Positions 17,420 through 48,566 of a DNA stretch of 64,000 nt are shown here, one piece after another. Source of the stretch: a virus; IMG/VR virus record IMGVR_UViG_3300029690_000340. The stretch is one strand, 5' to 3'. The number at the start of each line of letters is the position of its first letter. Within the stretch, counting starts at the first letter, position 1. The notes under the pieces are model-generated. The model was not told where the DNA came from. It searched no databases and was given only the letters and a program-made list of their open reading frames with translations. The position numbers and the translations under genes were made by a program.

Positions 17420-17433
17420 GGAGGTAAGTGACC

Positions 17434-21866: not shown

Positions 21867-22739
21867 GTGAGCGATAAGCGTAACGAGGACTTGAAACAGT
21901 TCATTATTCCAGAAAATTTTATGGGAGAATCCAGACTATTTCAAGGGCAGTTAAAGACACGCAATGTAGTGGAAGGAGGATTGATTTCGGGGGTATTGGC
22001 AATTTTCTTTTGGAATGTCATTTCAGTTCCTATCACCACAAAAATATCCCTGGTCATATTTTTTTCCGCACCACTTGGTCTGCTTGGCCTGTTTGGCGTG
22101 AACGGCGACCCGCTGTCCACCTTTATCAAGATTTTCTTTTCATGGCGAAGAAAACGGGGGCTGATGTTGTTCAACAACGAAGCACGAGCGTTGAAGGAAG
22201 CCCCCATTAAGCTCATGATGTCGGAAGATGGCATGGGCGACAAACTCAGGGATTTTCTGGATGCCAGAAAGGAAAAGAAGGCCGCTGAACGGGCGAGTCA
22301 GGAGATGGTCGAAGGCAAAACGTTCGAGTTTGCACCTGACAGTTCACTTGAGGGCAACTACATTGATGAAGATGACGATGGCGATGAAACGCCGAGCGGC
22401 AGCGCCGGCAATCTCCATAAAACAAAGCGCAACCAATCCTTCGTTGAAGTGGAAGTCCTGGAAGAGGATGACGATACCTCGTTGGAACTGGACGGATTTA
22501 CGGAGGATATCGACAGCAGCACCGTTGAGGAATCTGGCCTGCCGTTGCCGGATTTGGGCGGGGCCGACGATGTGGAATTGAGTAACGATGACACTAACGA
22601 GATGCCTGACGCCGAGGAACCTGACGATAATCCCCCTGCGTGTGAAACGCAGCTGGAGTCTGCGGCAGAGGATAATTCTGACGCCGAAGGCGACGCGGAT
22701 GGGGAAGATGAAGAACTTGACGAGGAGGATTTGTTTTAA
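21867..22739 (+). CDS. PrgI-family (VirB3-like) T4SS membrane protein with highly acidic C-terminal tail
   Basis: GTG start after GAAAGGAGG. Two TM helices (LISGVLAIFFWNVISVPI / LVIFFSAPLGLLGLFGV) as in PrgI-family proteins. Its stop overlaps the VirB4 start, as is typical. Confidence 0.5.
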   Translation: MSDKRNEDLKQFIIPENFMGESRLFQGQLKTRNVVEGGLISGVLAIFFWNVISVPITTKISLVIFFSAPLGLLGLFGVNGDPLSTFIKIFFSWRRKRGLMLFNNEARALKEAPIKLMMSEDGMGDKLRDFLDARKEKKAAERASQEMVEGKTFEFAPDSSLEGNYIDEDDDGDETPSGSAGNLHKTKRNQSFVEVEVLEEDDDTSLELDGFTEDIDSSTVEESGLPLPDLGGADDVELSNDDTNEMPDAEEPDDNPPACETQLESAAEDNSDAEGDADGEDEELDEEDLF

Positions 22740-25270: not shown

Positions 25271-25882
25271 ATGTTATATGAAGCTCCTGTTGACAATTTG
25301 AAATGTCTCATGAGGTCATGTACTGTGCTGAGTCGAAGCGGGTTGTATCGCTTTTTCTCTTCGCAGCTTACGCAAGCGCAGGTTGATTTTCTTATCAATG
25401 CGCTGGCAAGCCAACGAGTCCTTGACATCGACGAACAGGACTACGAACTGATTTGGTTTCACCGGATGGGCCTGAAAACTTCGAGGCTGAGACCGGAATA
25501 TGTGAAGGCGAAAATCCGTGCGTTTTGGGTGATTGCCCGTGTCGGATGCGACGCTATTCTGGATGTAACCTCGCTGGACCATCCGATGCAGTTCTCCTTC
25601 ATCGCGAGCACGTTGGACGAGAACGGTGAGGAGCGGTATATTCCGTATGATATTGCCGTCTGCAACACCGTTGACATCGCAAAGACTGTTGTTTACAAGC
25701 GAAGCAAATGCGAACGGAGCGCCATTGAGGAGGAGGCTACGCACATCGCACTGGTGAATAATAAGGAAACCGGCGAGGCAATTATGAAAGAATGCCTGGA
25801 CGAAAATAGCCGCCTTTACCGTGGATTTGACTGTTTCTGTACGCTGGATAATAACAATATTCCGAGGTATGTCTCATGGTGA
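25271..25882 (+). CDS. hypothetical protein
   Basis: ATG after AGAGAGGTG. No recognisable family. Confidence 0.35.
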   Translation: MLYEAPVDNLKCLMRSCTVLSRSGLYRFFSSQLTQAQVDFLINALASQRVLDIDEQDYELIWFHRMGLKTSRLRPEYVKAKIRAFWVIARVGCDAILDVTSLDHPMQFSFIASTLDENGEERYIPYDIAVCNTVDIAKTVVYKRSKCERSAIEEEATHIALVNNKETGEAIMKECLDENSRLYRGFDCFCTLDNNNIPRYVSW

Positions 25883-26694
25883 ATTCAACTTTGCCGGATG
25901 AAGAATTCGTGTTGACGCTCATGCAAATCGACGAGGCAAAGTCCGTGGCAGAGGAAGTTGCAGAGGAAGCAAATGCGCTGAATAACCTTGCAGGAAGTGT
26001 GTTGAAACTGTCTGAAAAAGTGGAGCACGACCATGGCTTTCTTGAACGCGAAGCAAATCAAATTGACGCGCAGAAAATTGTGAAGTCCTTCTACGTTTCA
26101 GGACTCGTCCACACGCACTCGCTGTATCAGGCAATCATCGCGCCGAATACCGCAGGCGGACTTCTTTCGCAAGCAGCTGTTCAGAGGGAAAACTATCTTG
26201 CATTTGGCGCTGAAATCGAGGGAATCCGCACTTTCCTCTCGGAGGGAAAGCTGCTAATAAAGTTGCCGATGTTGCCTGTCATTTGGAGCCGAAGTTACGC
26301 ACTTACACATATCGAAAAGGCCTCTGCTTTGAAGCGGTTCTTCTCCTTTTTTACGCAGTCTTTGCACGAGAGCCTGATGCTTCTTGACAACGAAATTCCC
26401 CCGTTCCCAAGTCAAAGCATCAACTATATTTTTGTGTTTCCTTGCTCGGAAAATATCGTTGTTGACTGCGATAATTTCGACACAAAAGCAATCACAGACA
26501 CCATTTGCCTGCATACTTTTTGCGATGACTCCGCAGAAAAAACCAGCTTTCACATGACGGGTTTTCGCTCCAATGATGTCCCACGAGGAACCTACATTTG
26601 CGTCTGTCCGGACAAATTTTCGGCCGCAAATCCGCACGAAATCATTCAAATTTTCCATCAGAATTTTGCTGATTTACCGGCAAAAAATGGCTGA
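25876..26694 (+). CDS. hypothetical protein
   Basis: Overlaps previous gene by 7 nt. No recognisable family. Confidence 0.35.
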   Translation: MVNSTLPDEEFVLTLMQIDEAKSVAEEVAEEANALNNLAGSVLKLSEKVEHDHGFLEREANQIDAQKIVKSFYVSGLVHTHSLYQAIIAPNTAGGLLSQAAVQRENYLAFGAEIEGIRTFLSEGKLLIKLPMLPVIWSRSYALTHIEKASALKRFFSFFTQSLHESLMLLDNEIPPFPSQSINYIFVFPCSENIVVDCDNFDTKAITDTICLHTFCDDSAEKTSFHMTGFRSNDVPRGTYICVCPDKFSAANPHEIIQIFHQNFADLPAKNG

Positions 26695-38131: not shown

Positions 38132-40000
38132 TTGGATTACCACACTTTTTGCCAAAAATTCAATATTTGCGGACTCAACGAACAGCAGGAAGCCGCTGTC
38201 CGGCGCGTGAATGGAGCAACGCTGCTCCTTGCTGTGCCGGGAAGCGGAAAAACTACGGTCATCGTAGCGAGAACCGGCTATCTCATGTATGTCGCAGGCG
38301 TAAAGCCGGAGAATATCCTGACCATCACTTATACCCGCGCTGCGGCAAAGGAAATGAAGGAGCGTTTCATAAAGAAGTTTGCCCCGGAACGGATACCGGC
38401 ATTCTCCACTATCAACAGCTTCTGCCTGTCCGTCATCAATACCTGTGCGAAAGAGAAGTACATTCATGTACCAAAGCTGGTGCCGAACAACGAGAGCATC
38501 GTCCGTGCTATTGCGGCTAAGATGCTTCCGGAGTATCCCAGTGATTCACAGGTGCGGTCTCTCGCGCAGAAGGTGTGCAAAGTAAAAAACAAGCTCATGA
38601 CCTTTCAGGAAATTGAGGCCATCGAAGAAAACAGCCTTGATTTTTCTGCTTTTTACCAGGCGTACAAGCTCTACATGAGCGAGCATGATTTGATGGATTT
38701 TGATGACCAGCTTCTCATGGCAAATGATTTGCTGGATGAATACCCGGACATCTTACAGCGGGCGCATGAGAAGTTCCGCTATGTGAGTGTGGACGAGGCG
38801 CAGGACACCTCGTATGTCCAGCACCTTATCGTCCAGAAGCTGGTTGGGCGGAATGGCAATATCTTCATGGTCGGAGACGAAGACCAGAGCATCTACGGCT
38901 TCCGAGGCGCGTATCCTGCCGCACTGCTGGACTTCCAGAGCAACTATAACGAACCCTGTATCCTGCGTATGGAGACCAATTACCGCAGCGACAGGAACAT
39001 CGTCTCAGCGGCCAATCAGTTCATCAAACTGAATACGAGACGACTCGACAAGAATATGCGTGCCCAGTCCCAAAAGGACGGAGCCATCGTCGTGACCTGC
39101 ATCGACCGCATGGAACAGCAGGCGGAGCTTCTGCTGGAGCGCATCCGGAATCAGAAGCCGGATGAATCCCTGGCAATTCTGTATCGGAATAACGACTCTG
39201 CCATCCCTCTTATCAATCTGCTCCAGATGAACGGCATTCAGGTTCAAACCAGAGATGCGACGGGGACCTTCATGACGAACTACGTCATTCGGGACCTGCT
39301 CGACTTTATGCTTCTGGCCCTGAACCCTGCTGACACCACCGCTTTTGGGCATCTGTACTACAAAATGGGCCTTTACATGAAGGGCGTCACCGCCAAGCGC
39401 ATTATCGAGGCGGTTGAAGAAGGGGAGTGCCGGAACGTATTCAGCGCCGCGATGAAATTTGCAGGCGGCAAGGGATACGCATGGAAAATAGAATGCCTGC
39501 CGAGGGACTTTTCCGACCTTGCGAAGAAGAAGCCTGCTGAGGCTATCGACTACATTCTGTTCATGCTCGACTATTGGAGCAACTGGCTGACGAAGAAAAT
39601 TGACGCCGGTGCTTCCGAGCAGTTTATCAGTCTGCGTATCAGCATTTTGAAAATGGTAGCGGAGAAGTATTCGACCATTCCGGACTTCCTCGCCGCACTC
39701 AAAAACATCACGGAATATAAGGGCTGCGAGGATTCCAATGTGACCGTTACCACCATCCATTCCAGTAAAGGTCTGGAGTTCGATAAGGTCATCTTAATCG
39801 ACATGGTATCTGGCATCATTCCCGGTGACAGCGATGACCGCGACGCGGAGGATGACGAAGAGGATGCGCGAGCGTTCTACGTCGGAGCGACGCGGGCACG
39901 GCATGAGCTGGAAATCATCACCTGCCGGAAGATGTACCAAGAAAAGCTGGAAGTATCTGAATTTGTGCCGCGCCTGCTGGCGGCGGGGAAAGGAGACTGA
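38132..40000 (+). CDS. UvrD/PcrA/Rep-family superfamily-1 DNA helicase
   Basis: Likely TTG start at 38132 downstream of the promoter. Walker A AVPGSGKTTVIVARTGYLM. Motif II FRYVSVDEAQDTSYVQ. Motif VI-like VGATRARHELEI near the C-terminus. Confidence 0.75.
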   Translation: MDYHTFCQKFNICGLNEQQEAAVRRVNGATLLLAVPGSGKTTVIVARTGYLMYVAGVKPENILTITYTRAAAKEMKERFIKKFAPERIPAFSTINSFCLSVINTCAKEKYIHVPKLVPNNESIVRAIAAKMLPEYPSDSQVRSLAQKVCKVKNKLMTFQEIEAIEENSLDFSAFYQAYKLYMSEHDLMDFDDQLLMANDLLDEYPDILQRAHEKFRYVSVDEAQDTSYVQHLIVQKLVGRNGNIFMVGDEDQSIYGFRGAYPAALLDFQSNYNEPCILRMETNYRSDRNIVSAANQFIKLNTRRLDKNMRAQSQKDGAIVVTCIDRMEQQAELLLERIRNQKPDESLAILYRNNDSAIPLINLLQMNGIQVQTRDATGTFMTNYVIRDLLDFMLLALNPADTTAFGHLYYKMGLYMKGVTAKRIIEAVEEGECRNVFSAAMKFAGGKGYAWKIECLPRDFSDLAKKKPAEAIDYILFMLDYWSNWLTKKIDAGASEQFISLRISILKMVAEKYSTIPDFLAALKNITEYKGCEDSNVTVTTIHSSKGLEFDKVILIDMVSGIIPGDSDDRDAEDDEEDARAFYVGATRARHELEIITCRKMYQEKLEVSEFVPRLLAAGKGD

Positions 40001-40002
40001 AA

Positions 40003-40374
40003 ATGCCGGATGCAAAGAGCAGCACGGTCGTAGTGCAGCGCGGCGTCTACACGGTGGCCAGAAAAACTGTGGACACGGAGGGCAACACCATCCGGGAAAC
40101 ACCGCCGCAATGGCGGGAAGACATCACCGGCGGCTCTGTTATCGTCTGTCCCATCAATTCGGAGACAGACGAACCGCTGTGCGACGCGGAATTGTTTTCC
40201 GCCCTATCACAGGATGTGCTTCTCGACAGTCTCGGAAAGGCGCTGGGCTTCCACTGGCCGAACTTCGCCGCCATCTTTGAGAAGATGCGGGAAAGCGAGG
40301 TGGATTTCTGCCAGTTCTGCGGCGAGGACCTGCAAAAGTGTATGCTTTGCCCCTTCAATTCCTACAACAATTAG
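40003..40374 (+). CDS. hypothetical protein
   Basis: ATG 2 nt after the helicase stop. C-terminal CQFCGEDLQKCMLCP cysteine cluster. Confidence 0.35.
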   Translation: MPDAKSSTVVVQRGVYTVARKTVDTEGNTIRETPPQWREDITGGSVIVCPINSETDEPLCDAELFSALSQDVLLDSLGKALGFHWPNFAAIFEKMRESEVDFCQFCGEDLQKCMLCPFNSYNN

Positions 40375-40382
40375 TCTGCACT

Positions 40383-40714
40383 CCCGCCGAATGGCGGGCG
40401 GGTGAGCCGGAAACTCCGACCCAGCCTCCTGTCATTTGGTGTGGCTTATGACCCGCAAGGGAAGTAAGCCTCGTCAATAAGCCTCAGCCGCAAGGCTACG
40501 ATATGCCGGAATCCATAGGCACCGGCGGATGCTCCACAAGTCCGCCGCTCTGCGGGTGCGTATTAAACATCTCTGAGGGGAAGGAGAAGTGTGCGCACCA
40601 TTAAACCCGGTATATCCTTGGCGATGTGGACCACAGTAACGCCGCGTGAGCGGTAAGTGCTGATTTACCAAATCTTTGGTTTTCTCAAGTAGGGGAATTC
40701 TCGTCTTTTTAATC
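40383..40714 (+). ncRNA. tracrRNA/omegaRNA-like structured element, orphan copy (about 90% identical to 41745..42076)
   Basis: No ORF. GC-rich hairpins (CCCGCCGAATGGCGGG, CGGCGGATGCTCCACAAGTCCGCCG). Anti-repeat CCTCCTGTCATTTGGTGTGGC at 40425-40445 is complementary to downstream repeats. Ends with CCAAATCTTTGG hairpin + TTTTCT. Confidence 0.4.
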
Positions 40715-40797
40715 GTTGATGTGCCACAGCAAATGACAGGGAGTATCATCTGGCCCGCAGGATTGACGTCCCACACCAAATGACAGGAATCGGTAAA
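40715..40797 (+). repeat. two degenerate 36-nt array-type repeats separated by an 11-nt spacer
   Basis: GTTGATGTGCCACAGCAAATGACAGGGAGTATCATC / ATTGACGTCCCACACCAAATGACAGGAATCGGTAAA. Share the (G/A)TTGA(C/T)GT...CAAATGACAGG core with the array at 42097. Confidence 0.4.
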
Positions 40798-40817: not shown

Positions 40818-41420
40818 ATGACTTTTTTCAGTTTTGCTCTGGAATTAGGGCGGCTCATGGTGCCGCAGCTCGCGGTACTCATTGTGCTATGTGCATTGTG
40901 CGATTTCGCCGTGGGCAAGCTCAATGCGCCGAGACCGCCGGTGCTTGCGGTTCTGTGGCTATTCCTACTCATTGAAACACTTAACGTCGGCAGCCGCGTG
41001 ACGCTGTTCTTCCAGAACTGGGAGTTCCAGATTCCCAAAGTCTCTCTTGGCATCCAGCTTGTGCTGCTGGCAGTCCTGGTGGGCTTGCCGGCTGCGAAGT
41101 ATTTCGCGGGGAAGAAGTTCGCCAACTGCGGTGCTGTGAGTAAGGCGCTCGCTTTATTCTTTCATACCGTTCTTTCCCTCGCAGCGGCGATTGTACTGCT
41201 GGCAAGCCTGTATTCTATAGTTATGGCACGAGCGGATTTCCCTGCGGATACTGCCAATGCAGTCTGCTTCGTTGTGGTTGTATTTGCGCTGTACCAGCCC
41301 TTACTTATGCACTTTGGTGGGAACAGGCTGGACGACATCCTGTCGCTCATTCGGCAGGCCAATCGCAACGCGGTGTCTGTCCATCAGAATGATACGAACC
41401 ATGTCGGCGCAGGTAAGTAA
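40818..41420 (+). CDS. hypothetical polytopic membrane protein
   Basis: RBS AGGAGGAATG. Five to six TM helices. Confidence 0.4.
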   Translation: MTFFSFALELGRLMVPQLAVLIVLCALCDFAVGKLNAPRPPVLAVLWLFLLIETLNVGSRVTLFFQNWEFQIPKVSLGIQLVLLAVLVGLPAAKYFAGKKFANCGAVSKALALFFHTVLSLAAAIVLLASLYSIVMARADFPADTANAVCFVVVVFALYQPLLMHFGGNRLDDILSLIRQANRNAVSVHQNDTNHVGAGK

Positions 41421-41739
41421 ACACGCGAGGAAGCGTACAAAACAGCGTGCTGGCCTCGGCAAAAGAGCAGCCGTGCGCAATGCACAGAAAGCCTTTGACC
41501 TTGGCGTGAAGCACTCGGAGACCAATGGACGCTTAAACAAGTATCTCACCGCCATCTACTTCACTAACAAAACCATCAACAACCTGCGCATCTATCACCG
41601 GCACGTCTACCTGTTTGCCGGAGATGTCCTTGTCACCGTGCTCAACCTGCCGAACAATTTGTGGCCGCAGGCTGATGCCTGCGAGAAGCGCAAGCGGGCA
41701 AGTTTGGAACGCCCTGTCTGTCAGGATAGTATTTCTTAG
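41401..41739 (+). CDS. possible small basic protein (112 aa), weakly supported
   Basis: In-frame ATG within listed ORF 41257..41739. K/R-rich N-terminus (KHARKRTKQRAGLGKRAAVR). No RBS. Confidence 0.2.
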   Translation: MSAQVSKHARKRTKQRAGLGKRAAVRNAQKAFDLGVKHSETNGRLNKYLTAIYFTNKTINNLRIYHRHVYLFAGDVLVTVLNLPNNLWPQADACEKRKRASLERPVCQDSIS

Positions 41740-41744
41740 TTTTT

Positions 41745-42076
41745 CCCGCCGAATGGCGGGTGGGTGCGCCGGAAGCTCCGGCTCAGCCTCCTGTCATTTG
41801 GTGTGGCTTATGACCCGCAAGGAGAGTAAGCCTCGTCAATAAGCCTCAGCCGCAAGGCTACGATATGCCGGAATACATAGGCACCGGCGGATACTCCACA
41901 AGTCCGCCGCTCTGCGGGTGCGTATTAAACATCTCTGAGGGGAAGGAGAAGTGTGCGTACCATCAAACCCGGTATATCCTTGGCGATGTGGACCACAGTA
42001 ACGCCGCGTGAGCGGTAAGTGCTGATTTACCAATTTTTTGGTTTGCCTAAGTAGGAGAATCTTCGTATTTTTAAGC
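41745..42076 (+). ncRNA. tracrRNA/omegaRNA-like structured element upstream of the array and iscB
   Basis: Anti-repeat CCTCCTGTCATTTGGTGTGGC at 41787-41807 has 12-18 contiguous nt complementary to the ...CCACCAAATGACAGG... portion of each array repeat. Many hairpins. About 90% identical to 40383..40714, with several paired substitutions. Confidence 0.45.
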
Positions 42077-42096
42077 GTTGAAATGCCAACTACCTG

Positions 42097-42330
42097 GTTG
42101 ACGTACCCCGCCAAATGACAGGTAGCTATACCCAAAGCGACCAGCCGATGCGCCCATTGTAGTTGACGTATCCCACCAAATGACAGGTAGCTATACCAGT
42201 TGAGCATGGCAATGATGGGGATTTGCGAGTTGATGTCCCTAACCAAATGACAGGTAACTATACCCAAATGGCTTGGTTCTCACAAGTTCTTGTGGTTGAC
42301 GTCCCCCACCAAATGACAAGAAGCTGCACC
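42097..42330 (+). CRISPR. CRISPR-like mini-array: four 36-nt repeats, three spacers (29, 31, 30 nt)
   Basis: R1 42097-42132 GTTGACGTACCCCGCCAAATGACAGGTAGCTATACC. R2 42162-42197. R3 42229-42264. R4 42295-42330 (degenerate terminal repeat). Spacers CAAAGCGACCAGCCGATGCGCCCATTGTA / AGTTGAGCATGGCAATGATGGGGATTTGCGA / CAAATGGCTTGGTTCTCACAAGTTCTTGTG. Repeats are 83-94% identical, not perfect. Confidence 0.55.
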
Positions 42331-42352
42331 CCGTAGTGAAAGGAAAAATAAG

Positions 42353-43747
42353 ATGCCAGTATGTGTTTTAAGTGCAAACGGTGAACGGCTGATGCCGACC
42401 GAAAATTACGGCAAAGTGCGCCATCTGCTGAAGGATGGCCGCGCTGTAATTGCGAAGCGGAACCCGTTCACCATCCAGCTGACCTACGAGACCAGTACCT
42501 ATACCCAGCCCATCGAATTGTGCGTCGGCACCGGATATGAGCATATCGGCGTCAGCATTAAGGCAAAGGCAAAAGAGGTCGTATCGCAGCAATATGATTT
42601 GCTCACGAACGAGCGCTCCCGCCATGACGACTGCCGAGCGTACCGCCGGACGCGCAGAAACCGCCTGCGGTATCGGGCTGCACGGTTCAATAACCGTGTA
42701 TCCAGCAAAATGCCCGGTTGGATTGCTCCGTCCCTGGATAACAAGGTGGAGCGGCACCTGGATATTATCTCCCGCTATCTATCTGTCATGCCTGTCAAGG
42801 ATGTCTTTATCAAGGCCGCAACATACGATACACAGCTCCTTGCGGCGCTGGAGGCAGGGGAGCCTGTCCCGCAGGGTAAGGACTATCAGCATGGGCCACA
42901 GTACGGATACGATACACTGCGGGAAGCGGTCTTTGAACGGGACCACTATACCTGTGTGTATTGCAAGAGAGGTCTGAAAGACGGCGCTATCCTTCATGTC
43001 CATCACGCCTACTACTGGAAGGGTCTGCATGGGAACAGCATGAGGGAGCTTGCGACCTGCTGCGAGAAGTGCAACACACCTGCCAATCACAAGGAGGGCG
43101 GGAAGCTGTGGGGCTTCGATAAGCCTCTGCGGAAATATACCGGCGAAGCGTTTATGAATAGCGTGCGCTGGATTCTCTACCAGCGTGCGATGGCTCGCTT
43201 CCAGGGTGCTGCGGAAGTACACATGACCTATGGCGTCATCTCCAAGCGCGTCCGCACCAACCTCGGCCTCCCGTATTCCTGCGCTACGGATGCCTACTGC
43301 ATGGGCGAGCTGCGTCCGGAAGCCAGATGCGAAACAGAGGTCTTCCAGAAATACAGGCGAAACAACAGAGTCCTATCCAAATTCTATGACGCCAAATATT
43401 ACGACACACGGGAAAAGGGAGTTATCCGTTCTGGCAACGAGTTGTCCTCCGGCAGGACGAACCGCAATCATAACCTTGACGGCGAAAATCTGCGCCGGTT
43501 CCGTGGCTGTAAGAAGTCAAAGGGCCGAACCTCGACCAGAAAGCAGAGATATGCCATGCAGCCGGGAGATATCGTGGTCTACGGCAATCGCAAATACGTT
43601 TCCAAGGGCTGCTCCAGCTACGGCAAGGCATTAAGCCTACTCACGGATGGAAAGCCGCTTATGGTCAGCATGAAGAAAATCCAGCTTGTTCGTCATAAGG
43701 GCGGCTGGGTGCGGCTTCCCCATGCAGCAGCCGAGGCAAAAAAATAA
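42353..43747 (+). CDS. iscB: IscB-family RNA-guided nuclease homologue (PLMP domain, split RuvC, arginine-rich bridge helix, HNH, C-terminal TI domain); RuvC catalytic residues apparently substituted
   Basis: N-terminus MPVCVLSANGERLMPTENYGKVRHLLKDGRAVIAKRNPFTIQLTYE matches the PLMP domain. RRTRRNRLRYRAARFNNR bridge helix. HNH CVYCKRG...HVHHAYYWKGLHGNSMRELATCCEKCNTPANHK. Expected RuvC-I D is G59 (LCVGTG vs LGIDPG). RuvC-II E is K154 (VFIKAATYD). RuvC-III motif reads ATDAYC where H.DAY is expected, so the His is Thr and the Asp is retained. Confidence 0.75.
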   Translation: MPVCVLSANGERLMPTENYGKVRHLLKDGRAVIAKRNPFTIQLTYETSTYTQPIELCVGTGYEHIGVSIKAKAKEVVSQQYDLLTNERSRHDDCRAYRRTRRNRLRYRAARFNNRVSSKMPGWIAPSLDNKVERHLDIISRYLSVMPVKDVFIKAATYDTQLLAALEAGEPVPQGKDYQHGPQYGYDTLREAVFERDHYTCVYCKRGLKDGAILHVHHAYYWKGLHGNSMRELATCCEKCNTPANHKEGGKLWGFDKPLRKYTGEAFMNSVRWILYQRAMARFQGAAEVHMTYGVISKRVRTNLGLPYSCATDAYCMGELRPEARCETEVFQKYRRNNRVLSKFYDAKYYDTREKGVIRSGNELSSGRTNRNHNLDGENLRRFRGCKKSKGRTSTRKQRYAMQPGDIVVYGNRKYVSKGCSSYGKALSLLTDGKPLMVSMKKIQLVRHKGGWVRLPHAAAEAKK

Positions 43748-44133
43748 CCACCTGCGGATAAACCGTGGGCGGCGGAAATTGACAAAGCGGGGCCTTTTTG
43801 GTAAGATTACAATGCTCCAAAAGGAGCCAGAAAGGCGTTACCATATACGGTAGGCGGTCGGCACTTCCCTGTGGAGGGAGGTGATGCCAATGGTTACTTA
43901 CGAATCGCTTTTTGCGTATTCTCTTGTTATCATCGGCCTCGTGGGTCTGATAGTTCAGATTTGCAAACGAAAATGACCGCCCCTCGCCAAAGGAAGACGG
44001 TCATTTCGTTTGACTCTATTCTCTTAGGCTGACCGCTTATCGGTATTGCCTTTCTGCTTTTTATTATACACCAGCAAGCCGCTTTGTCAAGCAAGACAAG
44101 GCGGCTTTTTGCCGCCGGAAAGGAGTTTTTCCC

Positions 44134-44646: not shown

Positions 44647-44862
44647 ATGGCAAATTACAGAGTTTGTTTTCGGCTGCCCACATTTGTGGTACAGCTGAGC
44701 TTTGAGGCGGCAGAGAGGGATATCTCATACGAGGAAATTGCTGCATCCATCAACAAAGAGAAGGTCGCGGAACTTCTGTGTCTTGACGCACTGGGCTACA
44801 GTGCGGAAGACATAGAAATCATCACCCCGGAAGAGTATGACGAGGAGGTTGGAGCGGAATGA
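44647..44862 (+). CDS. small hypothetical protein (71 aa)
   Basis: RBS AAGGAGGGA. Translationally coupled to the next gene. Confidence 0.3.
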   Translation: MANYRVCFRLPTFVVQLSFEAAERDISYEEIAASINKEKVAELLCLDALGYSAEDIEIITPEEYDEEVGAE

Positions 44863-46352
44863 ACACTGAGGAGCGTTTCCTGCTTCGCTCGTCAGTAGAA
44901 TGGCGAAAGAATTTGATGCAGGATTGCTTGTGTATGCCGTGTGCTGAGTTCTCTGACTCTTTCGACGCAGCTGTAGACGCTGCCATCGCCACATTCCCTG
45001 AGTTGGAGCGGGAAGCTATCTTAAAACGCTACCGCGACGGTCTTACACCAACACAATGCGCAAACGCACTGGAAATTGACATCGGCAAGTTCTACTCTTG
45101 CTTCGACCTCGCCATAAGGAGGCTGCGTCACCCCAAATATGCGGGGGGTATCCTGAAAGAAATGCGCCGGTTTGCAGGCAGCCCTCTCGCCTCTGCTTTG
45201 AAGGAGGCCATTGAGAATGGCAACTGGAAAAAAATCGAGGAGTTGTGCGATTCTGTTCCGTTTCAGTGCCTCAATTTCTCGACTCGCACCAAGAACTGCC
45301 TTATGTTCAGTGGTGCCCAAAGTATCGGCGATGTTGTTCGACTGATAGAGAGCGGCAAACTGAAGAATCTGCGCCAATGCGGGCAGGGGACCCTTCAGAA
45401 TATTATCGACGTACTGGAAAAGGCTCTGCCGTTCCATTTCATCCTTGGAAAGCCAGCTCAATTCTGTCCGGAAACGAGTGATGCCTTCACCCGGAAGGAA
45501 CACACTCGCCAGCTCTCTGCCATGCTGGAGCGATACATCGACCCGCGCAACGACCCACGCATCTACTGGGCGAGAGAGGTCACATTCGACTACTCTACGA
45601 ACCACAAAATCCGCGTGGACTATATGCGCTTTCAGCCGCTCAACAATTCGACCTCCGGCATTGAGAAGGGGGACTTCTACGCCTACGAGGTCAAGTCCTC
45701 TGTGGAGGATTTCAAATCTCCTAACGGGCACAACTTCATCGCGGACTACAACTACTACGTTATGCCCGCAGACGTCTTCGAAGCGGTGAAGGATACTGTG
45801 CCATACGGCGTCGGTGTGCTTTGCCCGGACGGCGGGCATCTGCGATGCGTGAGGAAAGCCGTGAGGAAGGACCGAACCAGACCGGTCAGCGAGATGCTGC
45901 TCATGCTGTGGCGCAGCTCACGAAGAGAGAGATTGTTGGAAGGAGAAACAAAAATGACAAAGAAACAAACGACAGACAAGATTAACAAGCCTGAGTTCGC
46001 CCCGGAGGAGTGGCGGAAGGCGGCCATTATGTACGATACATCCTTTGCCTGGTGTAAAAATCAAATTTCAGCCTGGGGTAAGAATCAAATTTCATTTACA
46101 CCGGGCTTTAACGAGATGTTCGATGAAGCGCTGGACACACTTCCTGAGCGAAACCGCGATATCGTCCAAAAGTATTTTCGTGACAGAATGACGTTTTCGC
46201 AAATCGCCGACCTGCACGGCACCAGCAGAAGCATAGTTCGCCATCTGTGTATCTGGACGGTATGGAGGGTCATGAATTTGATTCTGCTGCGAGAAGGAAG
46301 CAACCAAAATGCTGCGCCACAAACAGGCGGAGGAACTGAAGGTGGGTATTGA
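44859..46352 (+). CDS. multidomain protein: sigma-70 region-4-like HTH / RpoA-CTD-like HhH / PD-(D/E)xK (VRR-NUC-like) / second sigma-70 region-4-like HTH
   Basis: ELEREAILKRYRDGLTPTQCANALEIDIGKF (sigma region 4-like). STRTKNCLMFSGAQSIGDVVRLIESGKLKNLRQCGQGTLQNI (alpha-CTD-like). VDYMRF...DFYAYEVKSS (nuclease-like D...EVK). C-terminal ERNRDIVQKYFRDRMTFSQIADLHGTSRSIVRH. Confidence 0.45.
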   Translation: MNTEERFLLRSSVEWRKNLMQDCLCMPCAEFSDSFDAAVDAAIATFPELEREAILKRYRDGLTPTQCANALEIDIGKFYSCFDLAIRRLRHPKYAGGILKEMRRFAGSPLASALKEAIENGNWKKIEELCDSVPFQCLNFSTRTKNCLMFSGAQSIGDVVRLIESGKLKNLRQCGQGTLQNIIDVLEKALPFHFILGKPAQFCPETSDAFTRKEHTRQLSAMLERYIDPRNDPRIYWAREVTFDYSTNHKIRVDYMRFQPLNNSTSGIEKGDFYAYEVKSSVEDFKSPNGHNFIADYNYYVMPADVFEAVKDTVPYGVGVLCPDGGHLRCVRKAVRKDRTRPVSEMLLMLWRSSRRERLLEGETKMTKKQTTDKINKPEFAPEEWRKAAIMYDTSFAWCKNQISAWGKNQISFTPGFNEMFDEALDTLPERNRDIVQKYFRDRMTFSQIADLHGTSRSIVRHLCIWTVWRVMNLILLREGSNQNAAPQTGGGTEGGY

Positions 46353-46836
46353 CATCAATAGCCTGCCGCTTTCCGCACAGATTCAGGTGCGTGCAAAGCT
46401 CGACGAGCAGAAGCGCGAACAGAAACAGCAGCGAGCAAAAAAACAGCCGGAAGCACAGAAAAGGCAAAAACAGCCGAAAGAAGCGGACTCTGCTGAGCCA
46501 TCCAAATATCGCAACATAAAGGTCATTCGTGTGGTGGATGGAGAAACCGTGAAATTCCCCAGCAAGCGGGAGGCACGGCGCTTCGATGAACTGTATTTGC
46601 AGTACAAGGGCGGTGCAATCCAGGACCTGCGGCTCCAGCAGGACTTCACGCTGGTCGAGGGCTATACACGGCCAAATGGCAAGCGGGTTCGCCCAATGGT
46701 CTATAAGGCAGATTTCGTATACCTTCGCAACGGTAAACGCATCGTGGAAGACGCGAAGGGAAAACGAACCGAAAAGTATCTCATGAAACGCAAACTCATG
46801 TTGGAAAAGTACGGAATCGAAATTTCGGAGGTGTAA
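46309..46836 (+). CDS. DUF1064-family phage protein with K/Q/E-rich N-terminal extension
   Basis: C-terminal block KFPSKREARRFDELYLQYKGGAIQDLRLQQDFTLVEG...YKADFVYLRNGKRIVEDAKGKRTEKYLMKRKLMLEKYG matches DUF1064 conservation. Confidence 0.55.
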   Translation: MLRHKQAEELKVGIDINSLPLSAQIQVRAKLDEQKREQKQQRAKKQPEAQKRQKQPKEADSAEPSKYRNIKVIRVVDGETVKFPSKREARRFDELYLQYKGGAIQDLRLQQDFTLVEGYTRPNGKRVRPMVYKADFVYLRNGKRIVEDAKGKRTEKYLMKRKLMLEKYGIEISEV

Positions 46837-46841
46837 TATCA

Positions 46842-47345
46842 ATGTTTGAAAACGGTAAGTTCCCAACGATTGAAGAGCTTTTGGAACGGGGAGAACACCT
46901 CATTCAGAAGGCAGTTGACGGAAAAAGATTAAGCGGCGAGGAAACGCATTTTCTCGAATTGCAAAATATATGGCTTGCGCAAAGGAGGGATGAACAGGAA
47001 AAAAACTGCGCGCGTCCTCTTGTGGAGCAGCTCAAGAAAACAACCCCCTTTGTGCAGGATGTATTCCGCAGCACCGAATATTCCGAGTTCGCCCTCTGGT
47101 GCATTGAGATTCCCACTACCGCCAGCCGGCACAACGATGACGGCTCAAACGACATCTGCGGTTGTTGGATTACGGCAGACAACAGCACGACCTACGAGGA
47201 GATGTGTCGCCGTCTGGAAGGAGTGAAGACGAAAGCCGATATTCTGGCTCTCTCCACCACGCCAAGTACCGTTGAGGCAATCAGTTCGGCCACACCGCGC
47301 TGGAGGGCGGAGGTGGAGCAACTCCGCGCACAACAGCAAAAATAG
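46842..47345 (+). CDS. hypothetical protein
   Basis: RBS GGAGGTG. No recognisable family. Confidence 0.35.
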   Translation: MFENGKFPTIEELLERGEHLIQKAVDGKRLSGEETHFLELQNIWLAQRRDEQEKNCARPLVEQLKKTTPFVQDVFRSTEYSEFALWCIEIPTTASRHNDDGSNDICGCWITADNSTTYEEMCRRLEGVKTKADILALSTTPSTVEAISSATPRWRAEVEQLRAQQQK

Positions 47346-47362
47346 TCTCTCCCATCCTGGAA

Positions 47363-47392
47363 GGCCGTCAGCACATCGCTGGCGGCCTTTTG
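47363..47392 (+). terminator. rho-independent terminator
   Basis: GGCCGTCAGCACATCGCTGGCGGCC + TTTTG. Confidence 0.5.
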
Positions 47393-47393
47393 A

Positions 47394-47422
47394 TTGACAA
47401 ATAAGCTATTGTGTGGTATAAT
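47394..47422 (+). promoter_or_regulatory. conserved promoter (TTGACA-N17-TGGTATAAT)
   Basis: TTGACAAATAAGCTATTGTGTGGTATAAT. Overlaps the listed ORF start at 47394, which is therefore not the real start. Confidence 0.55.
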
Positions 47423-47444
47423 TGCTGCATTCAGTGAAGGGGGG

Positions 47445-48566
47445 GTGGTTGACATCACGAATACCAGTAATTTAGCCGCTGACCGTGCGCTTGCCTATGA
47501 AGCCATTGAAAGGCAGCCTGAAACAGAAGAAATCGCAGCTTCGAATGAACAGGAGGCCGAAGCGAAGCAACCGGGAAATATCGGCGACCATGTGGCGATG
47601 TATCTCAGCCAAATTGGCAGCATCCCCATTATGCCGCAGGTGGAAGCGAATCGCTGCATTGAAAAAGTGCAGAAGGGGAATGCCGCTGCCGAACAGCTCG
47701 AAACGCTGCGGGTGATTGCCGAGGAGAGCGGGAATGCAGTTGACCCCGAAATCAAGAAAGACCTGATGAAGGCCATAGAAGCAGGAAGATGGGCGAAAGA
47801 TAAGGTTGTTGAGGGCAATCTTCGGCTTGTTGTGTCCATCGCAAAGAAATATATAAACTCAGCCGATTCTATGGTGTTCATGGACCTCATTCAGGAGGGC
47901 AACATTGGCCTCATGCGTTCCATCGACTCTTTTGACATTTCGAGGAATGTGAAGTTTTCCACCTACGCAACCTTCTGGATAAGGCAAAACATCACAAGAG
48001 CGCTTGCCACGACGGACCCAGCCATTCGCAAGCCCATCTATGTTGCGGAGGGCAGGCGGAGCGTCAATAATGCAAAAGAACAAATGCAACAAAAAGGCTT
48101 ACCTTGTGATGACCCTTTAGAAATCGCAAAATACATGGAGGGGGATGCGTGGGATTCCCTTTCAAAAAGGGAGCAGCAGAAAAAACTGCGCATCATCCAA
48201 CACTCGCTCCAGTACCGGAAGCCGGACTCGTTGGATGCGCCCGTCAATTCGGACGCCGCAAGCGATTCCAACACACCGCTTTCGGAATTCATCCCAAGCC
48301 ATAACGAGTGGGATAACCCGGAAATTTCAACGTCAGGGAAGGCACTATGGGAAACGATGGACAAAATCCTGCACGATATGCCCGCACGAGACGCCTGTGT
48401 GCTTCGCTTACGATTCGGATTGGAGGATGGTTGTGCTTATACCCTCAAAGAAATCGGGGACGAAATGGACTTAACGCGAGAGCGTGTCCGTCAGGTTACA
48501 GATAAAACACTCGATAAGCTACGCAACGGAAAGGCAGGGAAGATGCTTCAGGACTTTCTTGAATAA
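47445..48566 (+). CDS. sigma-70-family RNA polymerase sigma factor (RpoD/SigA-like group)
   Basis: Region 1.2 DHVAMYLSQIG. Region 2 GNLRLVVSIAKKYINSADSMVFMDLIQEGNIGLMRSIDSFDISRNVKFSTYATFWIRQNITRAL. Region 4 YTLKEIGDEMDLTRERVRQV. Start uncertain (GTG 47445 or nearby). Confidence 0.75.
   Translation: MVDITNTSNLAADRALAYEAIERQPETEEIAASNEQEAEAKQPGNIGDHVAMYLSQIGSIPIMPQVEANRCIEKVQKGNAAAEQLETLRVIAEESGNAVDPEIKKDLMKAIEAGRWAKDKVVEGNLRLVVSIAKKYINSADSMVFMDLIQEGNIGLMRSIDSFDISRNVKFSTYATFWIRQNITRALATTDPAIRKPIYVAEGRRSVNNAKEQMQQKGLPCDDPLEIAKYMEGDAWDSLSKREQQKKLRIIQHSLQYRKPDSLDAPVNSDAASDSNTPLSEFIPSHNEWDNPEISTSGKALWETMDKILHDMPARDACVLRLRFGLEDGCAYTLKEIGDEMDLTRERVRQVTDKTLDKLRNGKAGKMLQDFLE

What the first reader, a model, noticed from the sequence alone, without database searches (positions are those of the whole stretch)
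41745..43747. IscB (Cas9 ancestor) sits directly behind its own CRISPR-like array and a tracrRNA-like element carrying a matching anti-repeat
The 464-aa ORF has the full IscB layout: PLMP N-terminus, arginine-rich bridge helix RRTRRNRLRY, HNH, and a C-terminal TI-like domain. IscB normally works with a single omegaRNA and no array. Here the ATG is 22 nt after the last of four 36-nt direct repeats that alternate with three 29-31-nt unique spacers. About 290 nt upstream of the array, a ~330-nt hairpin-rich non-coding element carries CCTCCTGTCATTTGGTGTGGC. Its reverse complement pairs with 12-18 contiguous nt of every repeat (...CACCAAATGACAGG...). Both elements are on the same strand, so the two RNAs could form a crRNA:tracrRNA-like duplex. 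The order tracr-like RNA, leader, array, effector mirrors a minimal type II locus, but without cas1/cas2 and with an IscB-sized effector. That is a rarely seen IscB-to-Cas9 intermediate, carried on a conjugative element.
Basis: partly seen in the sequence, partly recalled or inferred. Interest (0 to 1): 0.93.

Follow-up and report, generated by a model that had tools for sequence, protein, structure and literature searches.

The report
CRISPR-linked IscB with split guide RNA
A mobile element of human-gut bacteria carries a small Cas9-like protein (IscB) whose single guide RNA appears to be split into a real, changing CRISPR array plus a separate scaffold RNA, as in Cas9 systems, but one of the protein's two DNA-cutting sites is destroyed, so it probably nicks or blocks DNA rather than cutting it.

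Summary
Four 36-nt repeats with 29-31-nt spacers (42097-42330) end 22 nt before a 464-aa IscB gene. An upstream non-coding element carries a matching anti-repeat.

- **The upstream RNA is a known family.** It is a HEARO/omegaRNA (Rfam) that lacks its own 5' strands. Each repeat supplies them, so crRNA plus tracr-like RNA rebuild the omegaRNA 5' domain.
- **There is a second module.** A second scaffold plus a collapsed array lies at 40382-40797.
- **The array behaves like a CRISPR array.** Across about 30 near-identical elements it holds 1-10 repeats and at least 22 distinct spacers of about 30 nt. Old spacers are shared at the trailer end and unique ones sit at the leader end. No cas1/cas2 was found, and no target was found.
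- **The RuvC site is dismantled.** The residues are G59, K154 and C310, against D, E and H in 39 of 39 aligned relatives. HNH is intact, and pN/pS is 0.11-0.22.
- **The lineage is a recent offshoot.** The nearest relatives (59% identity or less) are ordinary IscBs with a complete adjacent omegaRNA. This is not a Cas9 ancestor.

CRISPR-associated IscBs with an anti-repeat are already published (Altae-Tran 2021; DelIscB 2025). I rate this a new variant of a known kind.

The parts
40382..40681 (+). Module 1 scaffold: tracr-like, 5'-truncated HEARO/omegaRNA copy 1. The anti-repeat TCCTGTCATTTGGTGTGG lies at 40427-40444.
   Evidence: Rfam HEARO RF02033 matches 40417-40636 at 100.8 bits (gathering score 83). 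The five outer P1 pairs are non-canonical. It forms a 300-nt direct duplication with 41744-42043 at 96% identity.
40715..40797 (+). Module 1 array, collapsed in this window. It consists of a fixed first repeat (40715-40750), an 11-nt gap and a terminal repeat (40762-40797), with no full-length spacer.
   Evidence: Repeat family D2. In L002 and L015 the same array holds 2 spacers of 30 nt, and in L009 it holds 3.
40818..41739 (+). Two ORFs of unknown function between the modules: 200 aa (hydrophobic) at 40818-41420 and 88 aa at 41473-41739.
   Evidence: Called as genes in all related contigs. Neither has a Pfam match. Whether they belong to the system is unknown.
41744..42043 (+). Module 2 scaffold: tracr-like, 5'-truncated HEARO/omegaRNA copy 2. 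The anti-repeat lies at 41789-41806. The P1 3' strand CGTCAAT lies at 41834-41840.
   Evidence: Rfam HEARO matches 41835-41998 at 91.8 bits. nhmmer matches 41779-41998. It folds with z = -3.4. Co-folding with the repeats rebuilds P1 plus the first hairpin.
42044..42096 (+). Leader between scaffold 2 and the first repeat. Relative to L021 and L009, this window has lost the fixed first repeat here.
   Evidence: Alignment A2. No convincing sigma-70 promoter was found.
42097..42330 (+). Module 2 CRISPR-like array: four 36-nt repeats and three spacers (42133-42161, 42198-42228, 42265-42294).
   Evidence: Spacer content varies among elements that are at least 97% identical.
42353..43747 (+). IscB gene (464 aa). 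RuvC is inactivated: G59, K154 and C310, with D313 kept. HNH is intact: H217/H218, N245/H246 and the zinc cysteines.
   Evidence: Pfam RRXRR. PDB IscB sequence matches. Catalytic columns in alignment A1 and across 120 homologs. pN/pS is 0.11-0.22. AlphaFold model with Foldseek search.

Best explanation
This is a CRISPR-associated IscB system in which the ancestral single omegaRNA has been split into two RNAs. I mark each step as shown or inferred.

1. **Scaffold RNAs.** The scaffold is encoded twice, at 40382-40681 and 41744-42043. Each copy lacks the guide, the 5' strand of stem P1 and the 5' strand of the first hairpin. (Shown.)
2. **Array.** Those missing pieces are supplied by each 36-nt repeat of the downstream array. 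Repeat nt 1-7 (GUUGACG) pair with CGUCAAU of the scaffold and close P1. Repeat nt about 10-26 pair with the anti-repeat. (Shown computationally.)
3. **Guide.** The spacer immediately 5' of a repeat then sits where the omegaRNA guide normally sits. (Inferred from the geometry.)
4. **Transcription and processing.** Scaffold and array are transcribed on the + strand, pair in trans and are trimmed, probably by host RNase III as in type II systems. They then load into IscB. (Inferred.)
5. **Outcome at the target.** RuvC residues D, E and H are replaced while HNH is intact and the gene is under purifying selection. The complex should therefore nick the target strand or simply bind and block it, and should not make double-strand breaks. 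(The residues are shown; the activity is inferred.)
6. **Spacer turnover.** The arrays gain spacers at the leader end and lose them internally. No integrase is encoded nearby, so acquisition presumably uses a host Cas1-Cas2 in trans. (Inferred.)
7. **Role.** The likely role is competition with, or exclusion of, other mobile DNA on behalf of the conjugative element that carries it. This resembles plasmid-borne type IV and type V-M systems. (Inferred; no target was found.)
For: **Identity of the parts**
- Both scaffold copies exceed the Rfam HEARO gathering score, but their P1 5' strand is missing or unpaired.
- Canonical relatives L025 and L126 have P1 and the first hairpin contiguous.
- The protein is an IscB by Pfam, PDB sequence search and fold search.

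**The split**
- Co-folding gives -40 to -48 kcal/mol against -28.6 +/- 2.4 for shuffled repeats. The predicted pairing reproduces the HEARO 5' domain.
- In 132 of the 133 distant relatives with an upstream match, the HEARO 3' end lies 49-75 nt before the ATG. In this clade the gap is 139-709 nt and tracks array length.

**A working array**
- There are 22 distinct spacer families. The modal length is 30 nt (19 of 28). Arrays hold 1-10 repeats.
- One trailer-end spacer is shared by five different arrays, while leader-end spacers are unique.

**The effector**
- D59, E154 and H310 are conserved in 39 of 39 aligned relatives. Here they are G, K and C.
- Of 120 homologs, 111 keep D-E-H-D.
- pN/pS is 0.11-0.22, and every variant keeps G/K/C and the HNH histidines.

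**Context**
- VirD4- and VirB4-like genes lie in the window.
- The exact protein occurs in 1585 blocks of metagenome assemblies. A 98%-identical copy lies in an Oscillospiraceae genome.
- A repeat/anti-repeat guide RNA is already documented for DelIscB (PMC12660989).
Against: - There are no expression or processing data. No convincing promoter or terminator was found for either RNA.
- No protospacer was found for any spacer, so the targets, the TAM and the biological role are all inferred. I searched the window and 171 loci, the plasmid and phage collections and IMG/VR with exact 20-mers of six spacers.
- No Cas1/Cas2 is known that would service the array.
- The repeats in this particular window are somewhat degenerate, and array 1 is empty here.
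- In array 1 the shared spacer sits at the leader end, opposite to the polarity seen in array 2.
- HNH activity is inferred from conserved residues only, and H241 is replaced by N.
Confidence: 0.8

Rival explanations
1. It is a pure RNA-guided DNA binder that acts as a transcriptional repressor or regulator and does not nick. This would resemble Cas12m, Cas12c or the TnpB-derived TldR repressors, silencing genes of rival elements, of the host or of the element itself.
For: - RuvC is dismantled.
- H241 in the HNH region is replaced by N.
- Domestication of nuclease-dead relatives is documented on the TnpB side (PMC13565253; 10.1101/2023.11.30.569447).
- The gene sits among sigma-factor and regulatory genes.
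Against: - The HNH catalytic His-His, the Asn-His pair and all four zinc cysteines are kept in every variant, and the gene is under purifying selection.
- A pure binder would not need these residues.
- No spacer matches the window or the element.
Confidence: 0.2
2. It is a decaying relic. After RuvC loss the IscB, the arrays and the scaffolds are non-functional leftovers carried passively by a successful mobile element.
For: - The RuvC catalytic residues are lost.
- The repeats in the window are only 83-94% alike, and array 1 has collapsed.
- No target was found for any spacer.
Against: - pN/pS is 0.11-0.22 across nine variant coding sequences, and all ORFs are intact.
- The two scaffold copies are 96% identical, and their few changes preserve wobble pairing.
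- Arrays differ by whole units of 30 nt plus 36 nt, with a polarised pattern.
- The exact protein occurs in 1585 assembly blocks.
Confidence: 0.07
3. It is a fully nuclease-competent minimal type II-like immune effector that makes double-strand breaks. This is what the first reader implied with 'full IscB layout'.
For: The domain order and fold match active IscBs. The array and tracr-like layout resemble type II systems.
Against: - G59, K154 and C310 replace the RuvC D, E and H. Those residues are invariant in 39 of 39 aligned relatives and align with the catalytic residues of OgeuIscB.
- There is no REC lobe and no cas1/cas2.
Confidence: 0.04
4. The repeats are DNA-level sites, such as iterons, regulator binding sites or leftover transposon ends of an ordinary IS200/IS605 IscB element, and are not RNA guide modules.
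For: The repeats lie directly upstream of a gene on a mobile element. Canonical IscBs do reside in IS elements.
Against: - The spacers are unrelated to one another, uniform in length at about 30 nt, and differ between near-identical elements.
- Every repeat is complementary to the scaffold RNA at exactly the positions that the scaffold lacks.
- No TnpA is recorded among the called genes within 6 kb.
Confidence: 0.02

Closest known systems
CRISPR-associated IscB systems (Altae-Tran et al., Science 2021; DelIscB, Zhang et al., Nat Commun 2025, PMC12660989)
   Same: - An IscB-sized effector sits next to a CRISPR array without adaptation genes.
- The guide RNA contains a repeat and an anti-repeat on an omegaRNA-like scaffold.
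- The association with CRISPR arose independently of Cas9 (PMC10734277).
   Different: - In DelIscB the array lies 5' of the anti-repeat and scaffold within one ncRNA just upstream of the ORF, and the effector cleaves plasmids (PMC12660989).
- Here the scaffold lies upstream of the array, so pairing must be in trans or long-range.
- Here the scaffold-array module is duplicated.
- Here the RuvC site is inactivated.
- Here the system sits on a gut conjugative element.
- I could not compare sequences with the published loci, so identity with one of them is not excluded.
Canonical IscB-omegaRNA (OMEGA) systems, e.g. OgeuIscB; HEARO RNA RF02033
   Same: The protein family and fold are the same. The scaffold RNA is the same Rfam family. 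The guide position 5' of stem P1 is the same.
   Different: - A canonical omegaRNA is one RNA with one guide, ending 49-75 nt before the ATG. It sits in an IS200/IS605 element and works with an active RuvC.
- Here the RNA is split, there are several guides, no transposase is recorded nearby, and RuvC is dead.
Type II CRISPR-Cas9 (crRNA:tracrRNA dual guide)
   Same: - The array has 36-nt repeats and about 30-nt spacers.
- A tracr-like RNA carries an anti-repeat.
- The guide lies 5' of the repeat.
- The effector is homologous, with an HNH inserted in RuvC.
   Different: There is no REC lobe (464 aa) and no cas1/cas2/csn2. RuvC is inactive. The effector is nested among ordinary IscBs and does not fall within or next to Cas9.
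TranC transposon-CRISPR intermediates on the TnpB-to-Cas12 side (Jin et al., Cell 2025, as cited in PMC13565253)
   Same: The evolutionary step is the same: a functional split of a transposon guide RNA into a tracrRNA and a crRNA, with a transposon-sized effector.
   Different: It is a different protein and RNA family (TnpB with its omegaRNA/reRNA). As described in that paper, TranC effectors are active nucleases.
Plasmid-borne CRISPR systems without adaptation genes and with reduced nuclease function (type IV-A, type V-M Cas12m). This comparison rests on my own knowledge and PMC13565253.
   Same: They are carried by conjugative elements, lack cas1/cas2, lack or have lost the DNA-cutting function, and have variable arrays. 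Their presumed role is competition between mobile elements.
   Different: Their effectors are unrelated. For the system here no plasmid targets were found, so the functional analogy is inferred.

Membership tests
IscB (OMEGA effector family) | N-terminal PLMP domain, arginine-rich bridge helix, split RuvC fold with inserted HNH, and a C-terminal TAM-interacting domain | tested here: met
   - Pfam RRXRR covers residues 3-181 at E = 7e-41.
- OgeuIscB and other solved IscBs match at E = 1e-29 to 1e-30.
- The model has pLDDT 78, and Foldseek's top hits are IscB structures at E = 1e-24.
- The motif reads RLMP. RRTRRNRLRY lies at residues 98-107.
IscB (OMEGA effector family) | Intact RuvC catalytic residues (D, E, H, D) | tested here: not met
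   The window protein has G59, K154, C310 and D313. All 39 aligned relatives have D, E, H and D. Of 120 homologs, 111 keep them.
IscB (OMEGA effector family) | Intact HNH catalytic residues | tested here: met
   H217/H218, N245/H246 and C201/C204/C237/C240 are conserved. H241 is replaced by N. H218 aligns with the OgeuIscB catalytic His.
IscB (OMEGA effector family) | Resides in an IS200/IS605 element with TnpA and transposon ends | tested here: not met
   No transposase family appears among the called genes within 6 kb on either side or among about 40 window ORFs scanned. I did not search for transposon ends.
HEARO / omegaRNA (Rfam RF02033) | Score above the family's gathering threshold | tested here: met
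   The two copies score 100.8 and 91.8 bits against a threshold of 83.
HEARO / omegaRNA (Rfam RF02033) | Complete 5' domain in cis: guide, stem P1 and first hairpin on one RNA | tested here: not met
   The P1 pairs are non-canonical in copy 1 and skipped in copy 2. The missing strands are found in the array repeats. Relatives have them in cis.
CRISPR array | Regularly spaced direct repeats with unique spacers of uniform length | tested here: met
   The window has four 36-nt repeats and spacers of 29, 31 and 30 nt. Across loci the modal spacer length is 30 nt.
CRISPR array | Spacer content varies between closely related genomes, with polarity | tested here: met
   There are 22 spacer families among about 30 loci whose IscB is at least 97% identical. 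In array 2, trailer-end spacers are shared and leader-end spacers are unique. Array 1 does not show the same polarity.
CRISPR array | Adjacent adaptation genes (cas1, cas2) | tested here: not met
   No Cas1 or Cas2 family was found in the neighbouring called genes or in about 40 window ORFs scanned with Pfam. Small ORFs were not scanned exhaustively, and the host genome was not searched.
CRISPR array | Spacers match foreign DNA (protospacers) | tested here: inconclusive
   No match was found in any collection I could search.
Type II CRISPR-Cas | Cas9 effector with a REC lobe, plus cas1-cas2 | tested here: not met
   The protein is 464 aa. Its best matches are IscBs, and Cas9 matches are weak (E = 1e-7 or worse by sequence). 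No adaptation genes were found.
Type II CRISPR-Cas | Separate tracrRNA whose anti-repeat pairs with the repeat | tested here: met
   This is computational only. There are 14-18 contiguous pairs plus the 7-bp P1 stem, at -40 to -48 kcal/mol against -28.6 for shuffled repeats. Expression was not tested.
CRISPR-associated IscB (published kind) | An IscB next to an array, with a repeat/anti-repeat guide RNA and no adaptation module | tested here: met
   The kind is described in PMC12660989 and PMC10734277.
CRISPR-associated IscB (published kind) | Array 5' of the anti-repeat and scaffold in one ncRNA (the DelIscB layout), with a nuclease-active effector | tested here: not met
   Here the order is scaffold, leader, array, ORF, and RuvC is inactivated.

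The most novel reading that the evidence does not exclude
A very common conjugative element of human-gut Oscillospiraceae carries a recently domesticated, RuvC-dead IscB that runs as a true adaptive, multi-guide system.

- Its omegaRNA was split at the first hairpin into an array-borne crRNA and an upstream trans-acting scaffold.
- Spacers are acquired with a borrowed host integrase.
- The HNH-only effector nicks or silences rival mobile DNA.

This would be a living, independent replay of the step that created crRNA:tracrRNA. Relatives may preserve an earlier stage: L176 has tandem complete omegaRNAs beside another RuvC-dead IscB.
Probability: 0.4. Interest if true: 0.8.

Novelty: new variant of a known kind. 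Interest (0 to 1): 0.62.

Why it matters
How the single omegaRNA of IscB became the crRNA:tracrRNA pair of Cas9 has been inferred mainly from distant comparisons. Here three things make the step directly testable:
- The split point can be read base by base against close relatives, 59% identical, that still have the unsplit RNA.
- The array is demonstrably turning over.
- The element is abundant in public gut datasets, so expression, processing and spacer gain can be checked.

It also shows that association with CRISPR can go together with loss of one nuclease site. That gives a natural compact HNH-only, dual-RNA-guided nickase or binder, which is of practical interest for base-editor-type tools. 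It further suggests that conjugative elements recruit IscB for competition between elements.

Tried and rejected
**Searches for targets (all negative)**
- The three window spacers against the window, with up to 6 mismatches, found only themselves.
- blastn-short of the spacers parsed at that point (17, of at least 25 nt) against the window and 171 fetched loci found only the arrays.
- All 22 spacers concatenated, against the plasmid and phage collections, found no match at E <= 1.
- Exact 20-mers of six spacers in IMG/VR found only the arrays themselves.

**Searches for the element**
- Megablast of 10 kb of the locus against the phage and plasmid collections found nothing.
- PHROGs scans gave no phage structural genes, so I did not call the element a phage, although IMG/VR lists some of these contigs.

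**Leads that went nowhere**
- The promoter and terminator scan gave nothing convincing for either RNA.
- Tandem Repeats Finder does not report the array, because the spacers are unique.
- Apparent 'arrays' in a second IscB group (L072 and others) proved to be a single 65-nt duplication of the gene end that abuts the omegaRNA start. I rejected them as CRISPR-like.

**A test I discarded**
- A per-position conservation test of the repeats against the predicted pairing is partly circular. Positions 1-5 and 15-26 were used to find the repeats, so I do not use it as evidence.

**Material I could not get**
- Altae-Tran 2021 is not held and the DelIscB supplements are not held. I therefore could not compare sequences with published CRISPR-associated IscBs.
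Full report
**1. The observation**

- Four 36-nt direct repeats lie at 42097-42132, 42162-42197, 42229-42264 and 42295-42330.
- They are separated by unique spacers of 29, 31 and 30 nt.
- The 464-aa ORF 42353-43747 starts 22 nt after the last repeat.
- TCCTGTCATTTGGTGTGG at 41789-41806 is complementary to the middle of every repeat (inverted pairs I5-I12).

This is far beyond chance. The core 12-mer, with up to one mismatch, occurs 11 times in the window against 0.41 expected from shuffles.

**2. The non-coding element is a truncated omegaRNA, and there are two**

Rfam identifies the element as HEARO RNA (RF02033), the family now called the IscB omegaRNA (PMC9755519).
- One match lies at 41835-41998 (91.8 bits) and a second at 40417-40636 (100.8 bits). 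The gathering score is 83.
- The two copies belong to a 300-nt direct duplication, 40382-40681 and 41744-42043, 96% identical.
- Each copy is followed by repeats. After copy 1 there is a fixed first repeat (40715-40750), an 11-nt gap and a terminal repeat (40762-40797).

The Rfam alignments show what is unusual. In copy 1 the five outer pairs of stem P1 are non-canonical. In copy 2 the 5' domain is skipped altogether.

**3. The repeats supply the missing strands**

In ordinary relatives the omegaRNA begins with the P1 5' strand (GUCAAY...). A short C-rich hairpin follows, then a second hairpin, then the P1 3' strand.

In the window, those 5' strands are found in the array repeats:
- Repeat nt 1-7 (GUUGACG) pair with CGUCAAU at 41834-41840.
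- Repeat nt about 10-26 pair with the anti-repeat.

RNAcofold of each repeat with the scaffold 5' region predicts exactly this. P1 encloses a long repeat:anti-repeat helix and the second hairpin. The energy is -40 to -48 kcal/mol, against -28.6 +/- 2.4 for shuffled repeats.

The spacer 5' of each repeat therefore sits where the omegaRNA guide sits. The omegaRNA has in effect been cut open in the loop of its first hairpin. Structurally this is the position of the repeat:anti-repeat duplex of Cas9 guides (my own knowledge of the Cas9 and IscB structures).

**4. The layout is specific to this clade**

I fetched 160 loci encoding relatives from metagenomes and IMG/VR. I located HEARO in them with an nhmmer profile and the IscB start with tblastn.
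- In 132 of the 133 relatives at roughly 46-54% identity that have an upstream match, the HEARO 3' end lies 49-75 nt before the ATG. This is the canonical adjacent arrangement.
- In the window's clade (at least 97% identity) the gap is 139-709 nt and scales with array length.
- The nearest outgroup, P0006 (57% identity), also has a complete adjacent omegaRNA.

**5. The array behaves like a CRISPR array**

The exact protein is on record in 1585 assembly blocks, and the named records are human-gut metagenomes. A 98%-identical copy lies in a 570-kb contig of Oscillospiraceae bacterium CM18GR_63.

I compared about 30 loci whose IscB is at least 97% identical.
- The arrays hold 1-10 repeats.
- After merging near-identical variants there are 22 distinct full-length spacers.
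- The modal spacer length is 30 nt (19 of 28).

Array 2 shows the classic pattern:

| Locus | Spacer order (leader to trailer) |
|---|---|
| window | s02-s03-s04 |
| L012 | s02-s03-s16 |
| L021 | s25-s26-s27-s28-s29-s03'-s04-(9 nt)-s16 |
| L093 | as L021, without s27 |
| L009 | s13-s14-(9 nt)-s16 |
| L011 | s18-s19-s16 |
| L023 | four private spacers |

Old spacers are shared at the trailer end, unique ones sit at the leader end, and there are internal deletions. Array 1 is empty in the window but holds 2-3 spacers in L002, L015 and L009. There the shared spacer is leader-proximal, so its polarity is unclear.

This variation rules out iterons or protein-binding repeats. The 36-nt repeat with a 30-nt spacer is the format of type II arrays (my own knowledge).

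No Cas1 or Cas2 appears among the neighbouring called genes or among about 40 window ORFs scanned with Pfam. The integrase, if any, must act in trans. This is inferred.

**6. The effector is an IscB with a dismantled RuvC site**

Membership in the family is solid.
- Pfam RRXRR matches at 7e-41.
- Solved IscBs match at E = 1e-29 to 1e-30.
- An AlphaFold model (pLDDT 78) has IscB structures as its best PDB matches, then IsrB, then small Cas9s.

The catalytic residues tell a different story. In an alignment with 39 relatives (49-59% identity), D59, E154, H310 and D313 are invariant. The window protein has G59, K154, C310 and D313. Neighbouring conserved positions are changed as well: G156A, F158Y, K308Y and N312T. 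The pairwise alignment to OgeuIscB places G59 and K154 opposite its catalytic Asp and Glu.

HNH is kept. H217/H218, N245/H246 and all four zinc cysteines are conserved, with only H241 replaced by N.

Among the 120 best homologs, 111 have the full set. Only this clade has G-K-C.

The gene is not decaying. Nine variant coding sequences are all intact, all keep these residues, and give pN/pS of 0.11-0.22 against the window copy.

The simplest reading is an HNH-only enzyme that nicks the target strand, or a binder. A RuvC-dead, HNH-active IscB has been noted once before in another context, next to an inactive Cas12 (PMC10910872).

**7. Context**

The window encodes:
- a VirD4-type coupling protein (17428-19704)
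- a VirB4/TraG-like ATPase (22739-25231)
- a CHAP/lysozyme protein (16094-17419)
- an ERF recombinase and a NERD protein, with a weak PrgI match

PHROGs scans of ten ORFs found no phage structural genes. 'Conjugative element' is therefore reasonable, but I did not determine its boundaries.

A UvrD-type helicase (38132-40000) and a 123-aa protein lie immediately upstream of scaffold 1 on the same strand. Whether they cooperate with a nickase is speculation.

**8. Targets**

No protospacer was found in any collection I could search. The repeat itself occurs in only the six IMG/VR contigs that carry this locus. The TAM, the targets and the biological role are therefore inferred. The analogy is with plasmid-borne CRISPR systems that lack adaptation genes and DNA-cutting function.

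**9. Comparison with what is known**

CRISPR-associated IscBs are established. Several small IscB branches became CRISPR-linked independently of Cas9 (PMC10734277, citing Altae-Tran 2021; PMC11610941).

For DelIscB the guide RNA contains spacers, repeats and an anti-repeat and lies upstream of the ORF. Its authors call it a possible IscB-to-Cas9 intermediate and note that processing into two RNAs is unproven (PMC12660989).

On the TnpB side, 'functional RNA splitting' defines the TranC intermediates (Jin et al. 2025, via PMC13565253).

Four things differ here:
- The order is scaffold, then array, then gene, which forces trans or long-range pairing.
- The scaffold-array module is duplicated.
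- RuvC is lost while the gene stays under purifying selection.
- Spacer turnover is documented on an abundant gut conjugative element.

I could not read Altae-Tran 2021 or its locus list, so this family may already be among its loci.

**10. Verdict**

This is a real CRISPR-associated IscB with a dual-RNA design. It is a side branch and not a Cas9 ancestor, the kind is already known, and the effector is not a full nuclease.

I rate it a new variant of a known kind, with interest 0.62. Expression, processing, activity and targets remain untested.

Noticed in passing
L176:1-960 (2.6-kb gut metagenome contig encoding P0059, 56% identical to the window IscB): This is another partly RuvC-dead IscB (D replaced by S, E replaced by G). 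Upstream it has at least three complete HEARO/omegaRNA copies in tandem: 1-144 (cut by the contig end), 303-570 and 642-908, at 118-121 bits. Each is preceded by short 13-15-nt copies of the omegaRNA 5' start, separated by 16-19 nt. It may be a different multi-guide layout, or an earlier stage of array formation.
   Followed up: partly
window 43779-43976: Just downstream of IscB there is a promoter-like site (TTGACA, 17 nt, TAAGAT) and a 28-aa hydrophobic ORF at 43890-43976 (MVTYESLFAYSLVIIGLVGLIVQICKRK). The ORF has a weak, sub-threshold match to Pfam Hol_Tox (E = 0.0045). It could be a small type I toxin.
   Followed up: partly
window 38132-40374: A UvrD/PcrA-type helicase (622 aa) and a 123-aa protein lie directly upstream of scaffold 1 on the same strand. 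A helicase next to a predicted nickase is suggestive, but it could simply serve replication or transfer of the element.
   Followed up: no
window 26275-26286: There is one further exact copy of the 12-nt anti-repeat core (CCTGTCATTTGG on the + strand) inside ORF 25876-26694. The flanks show no further similarity, so it is probably chance.
   Followed up: partly
L072:3487-3616 (also L075, L076, L079, L086, L161, L163, L166, L167, L169): In a canonical IscB group (51% identity), a 65-nt stretch of the end of the upstream gene is duplicated right at the omegaRNA 5' boundary. It looks like an insertion-site duplication that preserves the interrupted gene end. It is not a CRISPR-like array.
   Followed up: partly
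L084, L098, L129 (loci of canonical relatives): Dense tRNA gene arrays and HDV-like ribozymes (Rfam HDV-F-prausnitzii) lie within a few kb of canonical IscB-omegaRNA units. L098 and L129 come from IMG/VR viral contigs; L084 comes from a metagenome contig.
   Followed up: no
Spacer s19 and its variants s22, s23 and s35 in L011, L013, L014 and L095: The same spacer occurs with a 7- or 8-C tract and with 0-2 extra 3' bases, giving lengths of 30-33 nt. The cause could be slippage, sequencing error or imprecise junctions.
   Followed up: no
window 44859-48566: Downstream of IscB there is a cluster of regulatory genes: a protein with an RNA polymerase alpha-CTD-like domain and sigma-70 region 4, a DUF1064 protein, and a full sigma-70-type factor at 47394-48566.
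   Followed up: no
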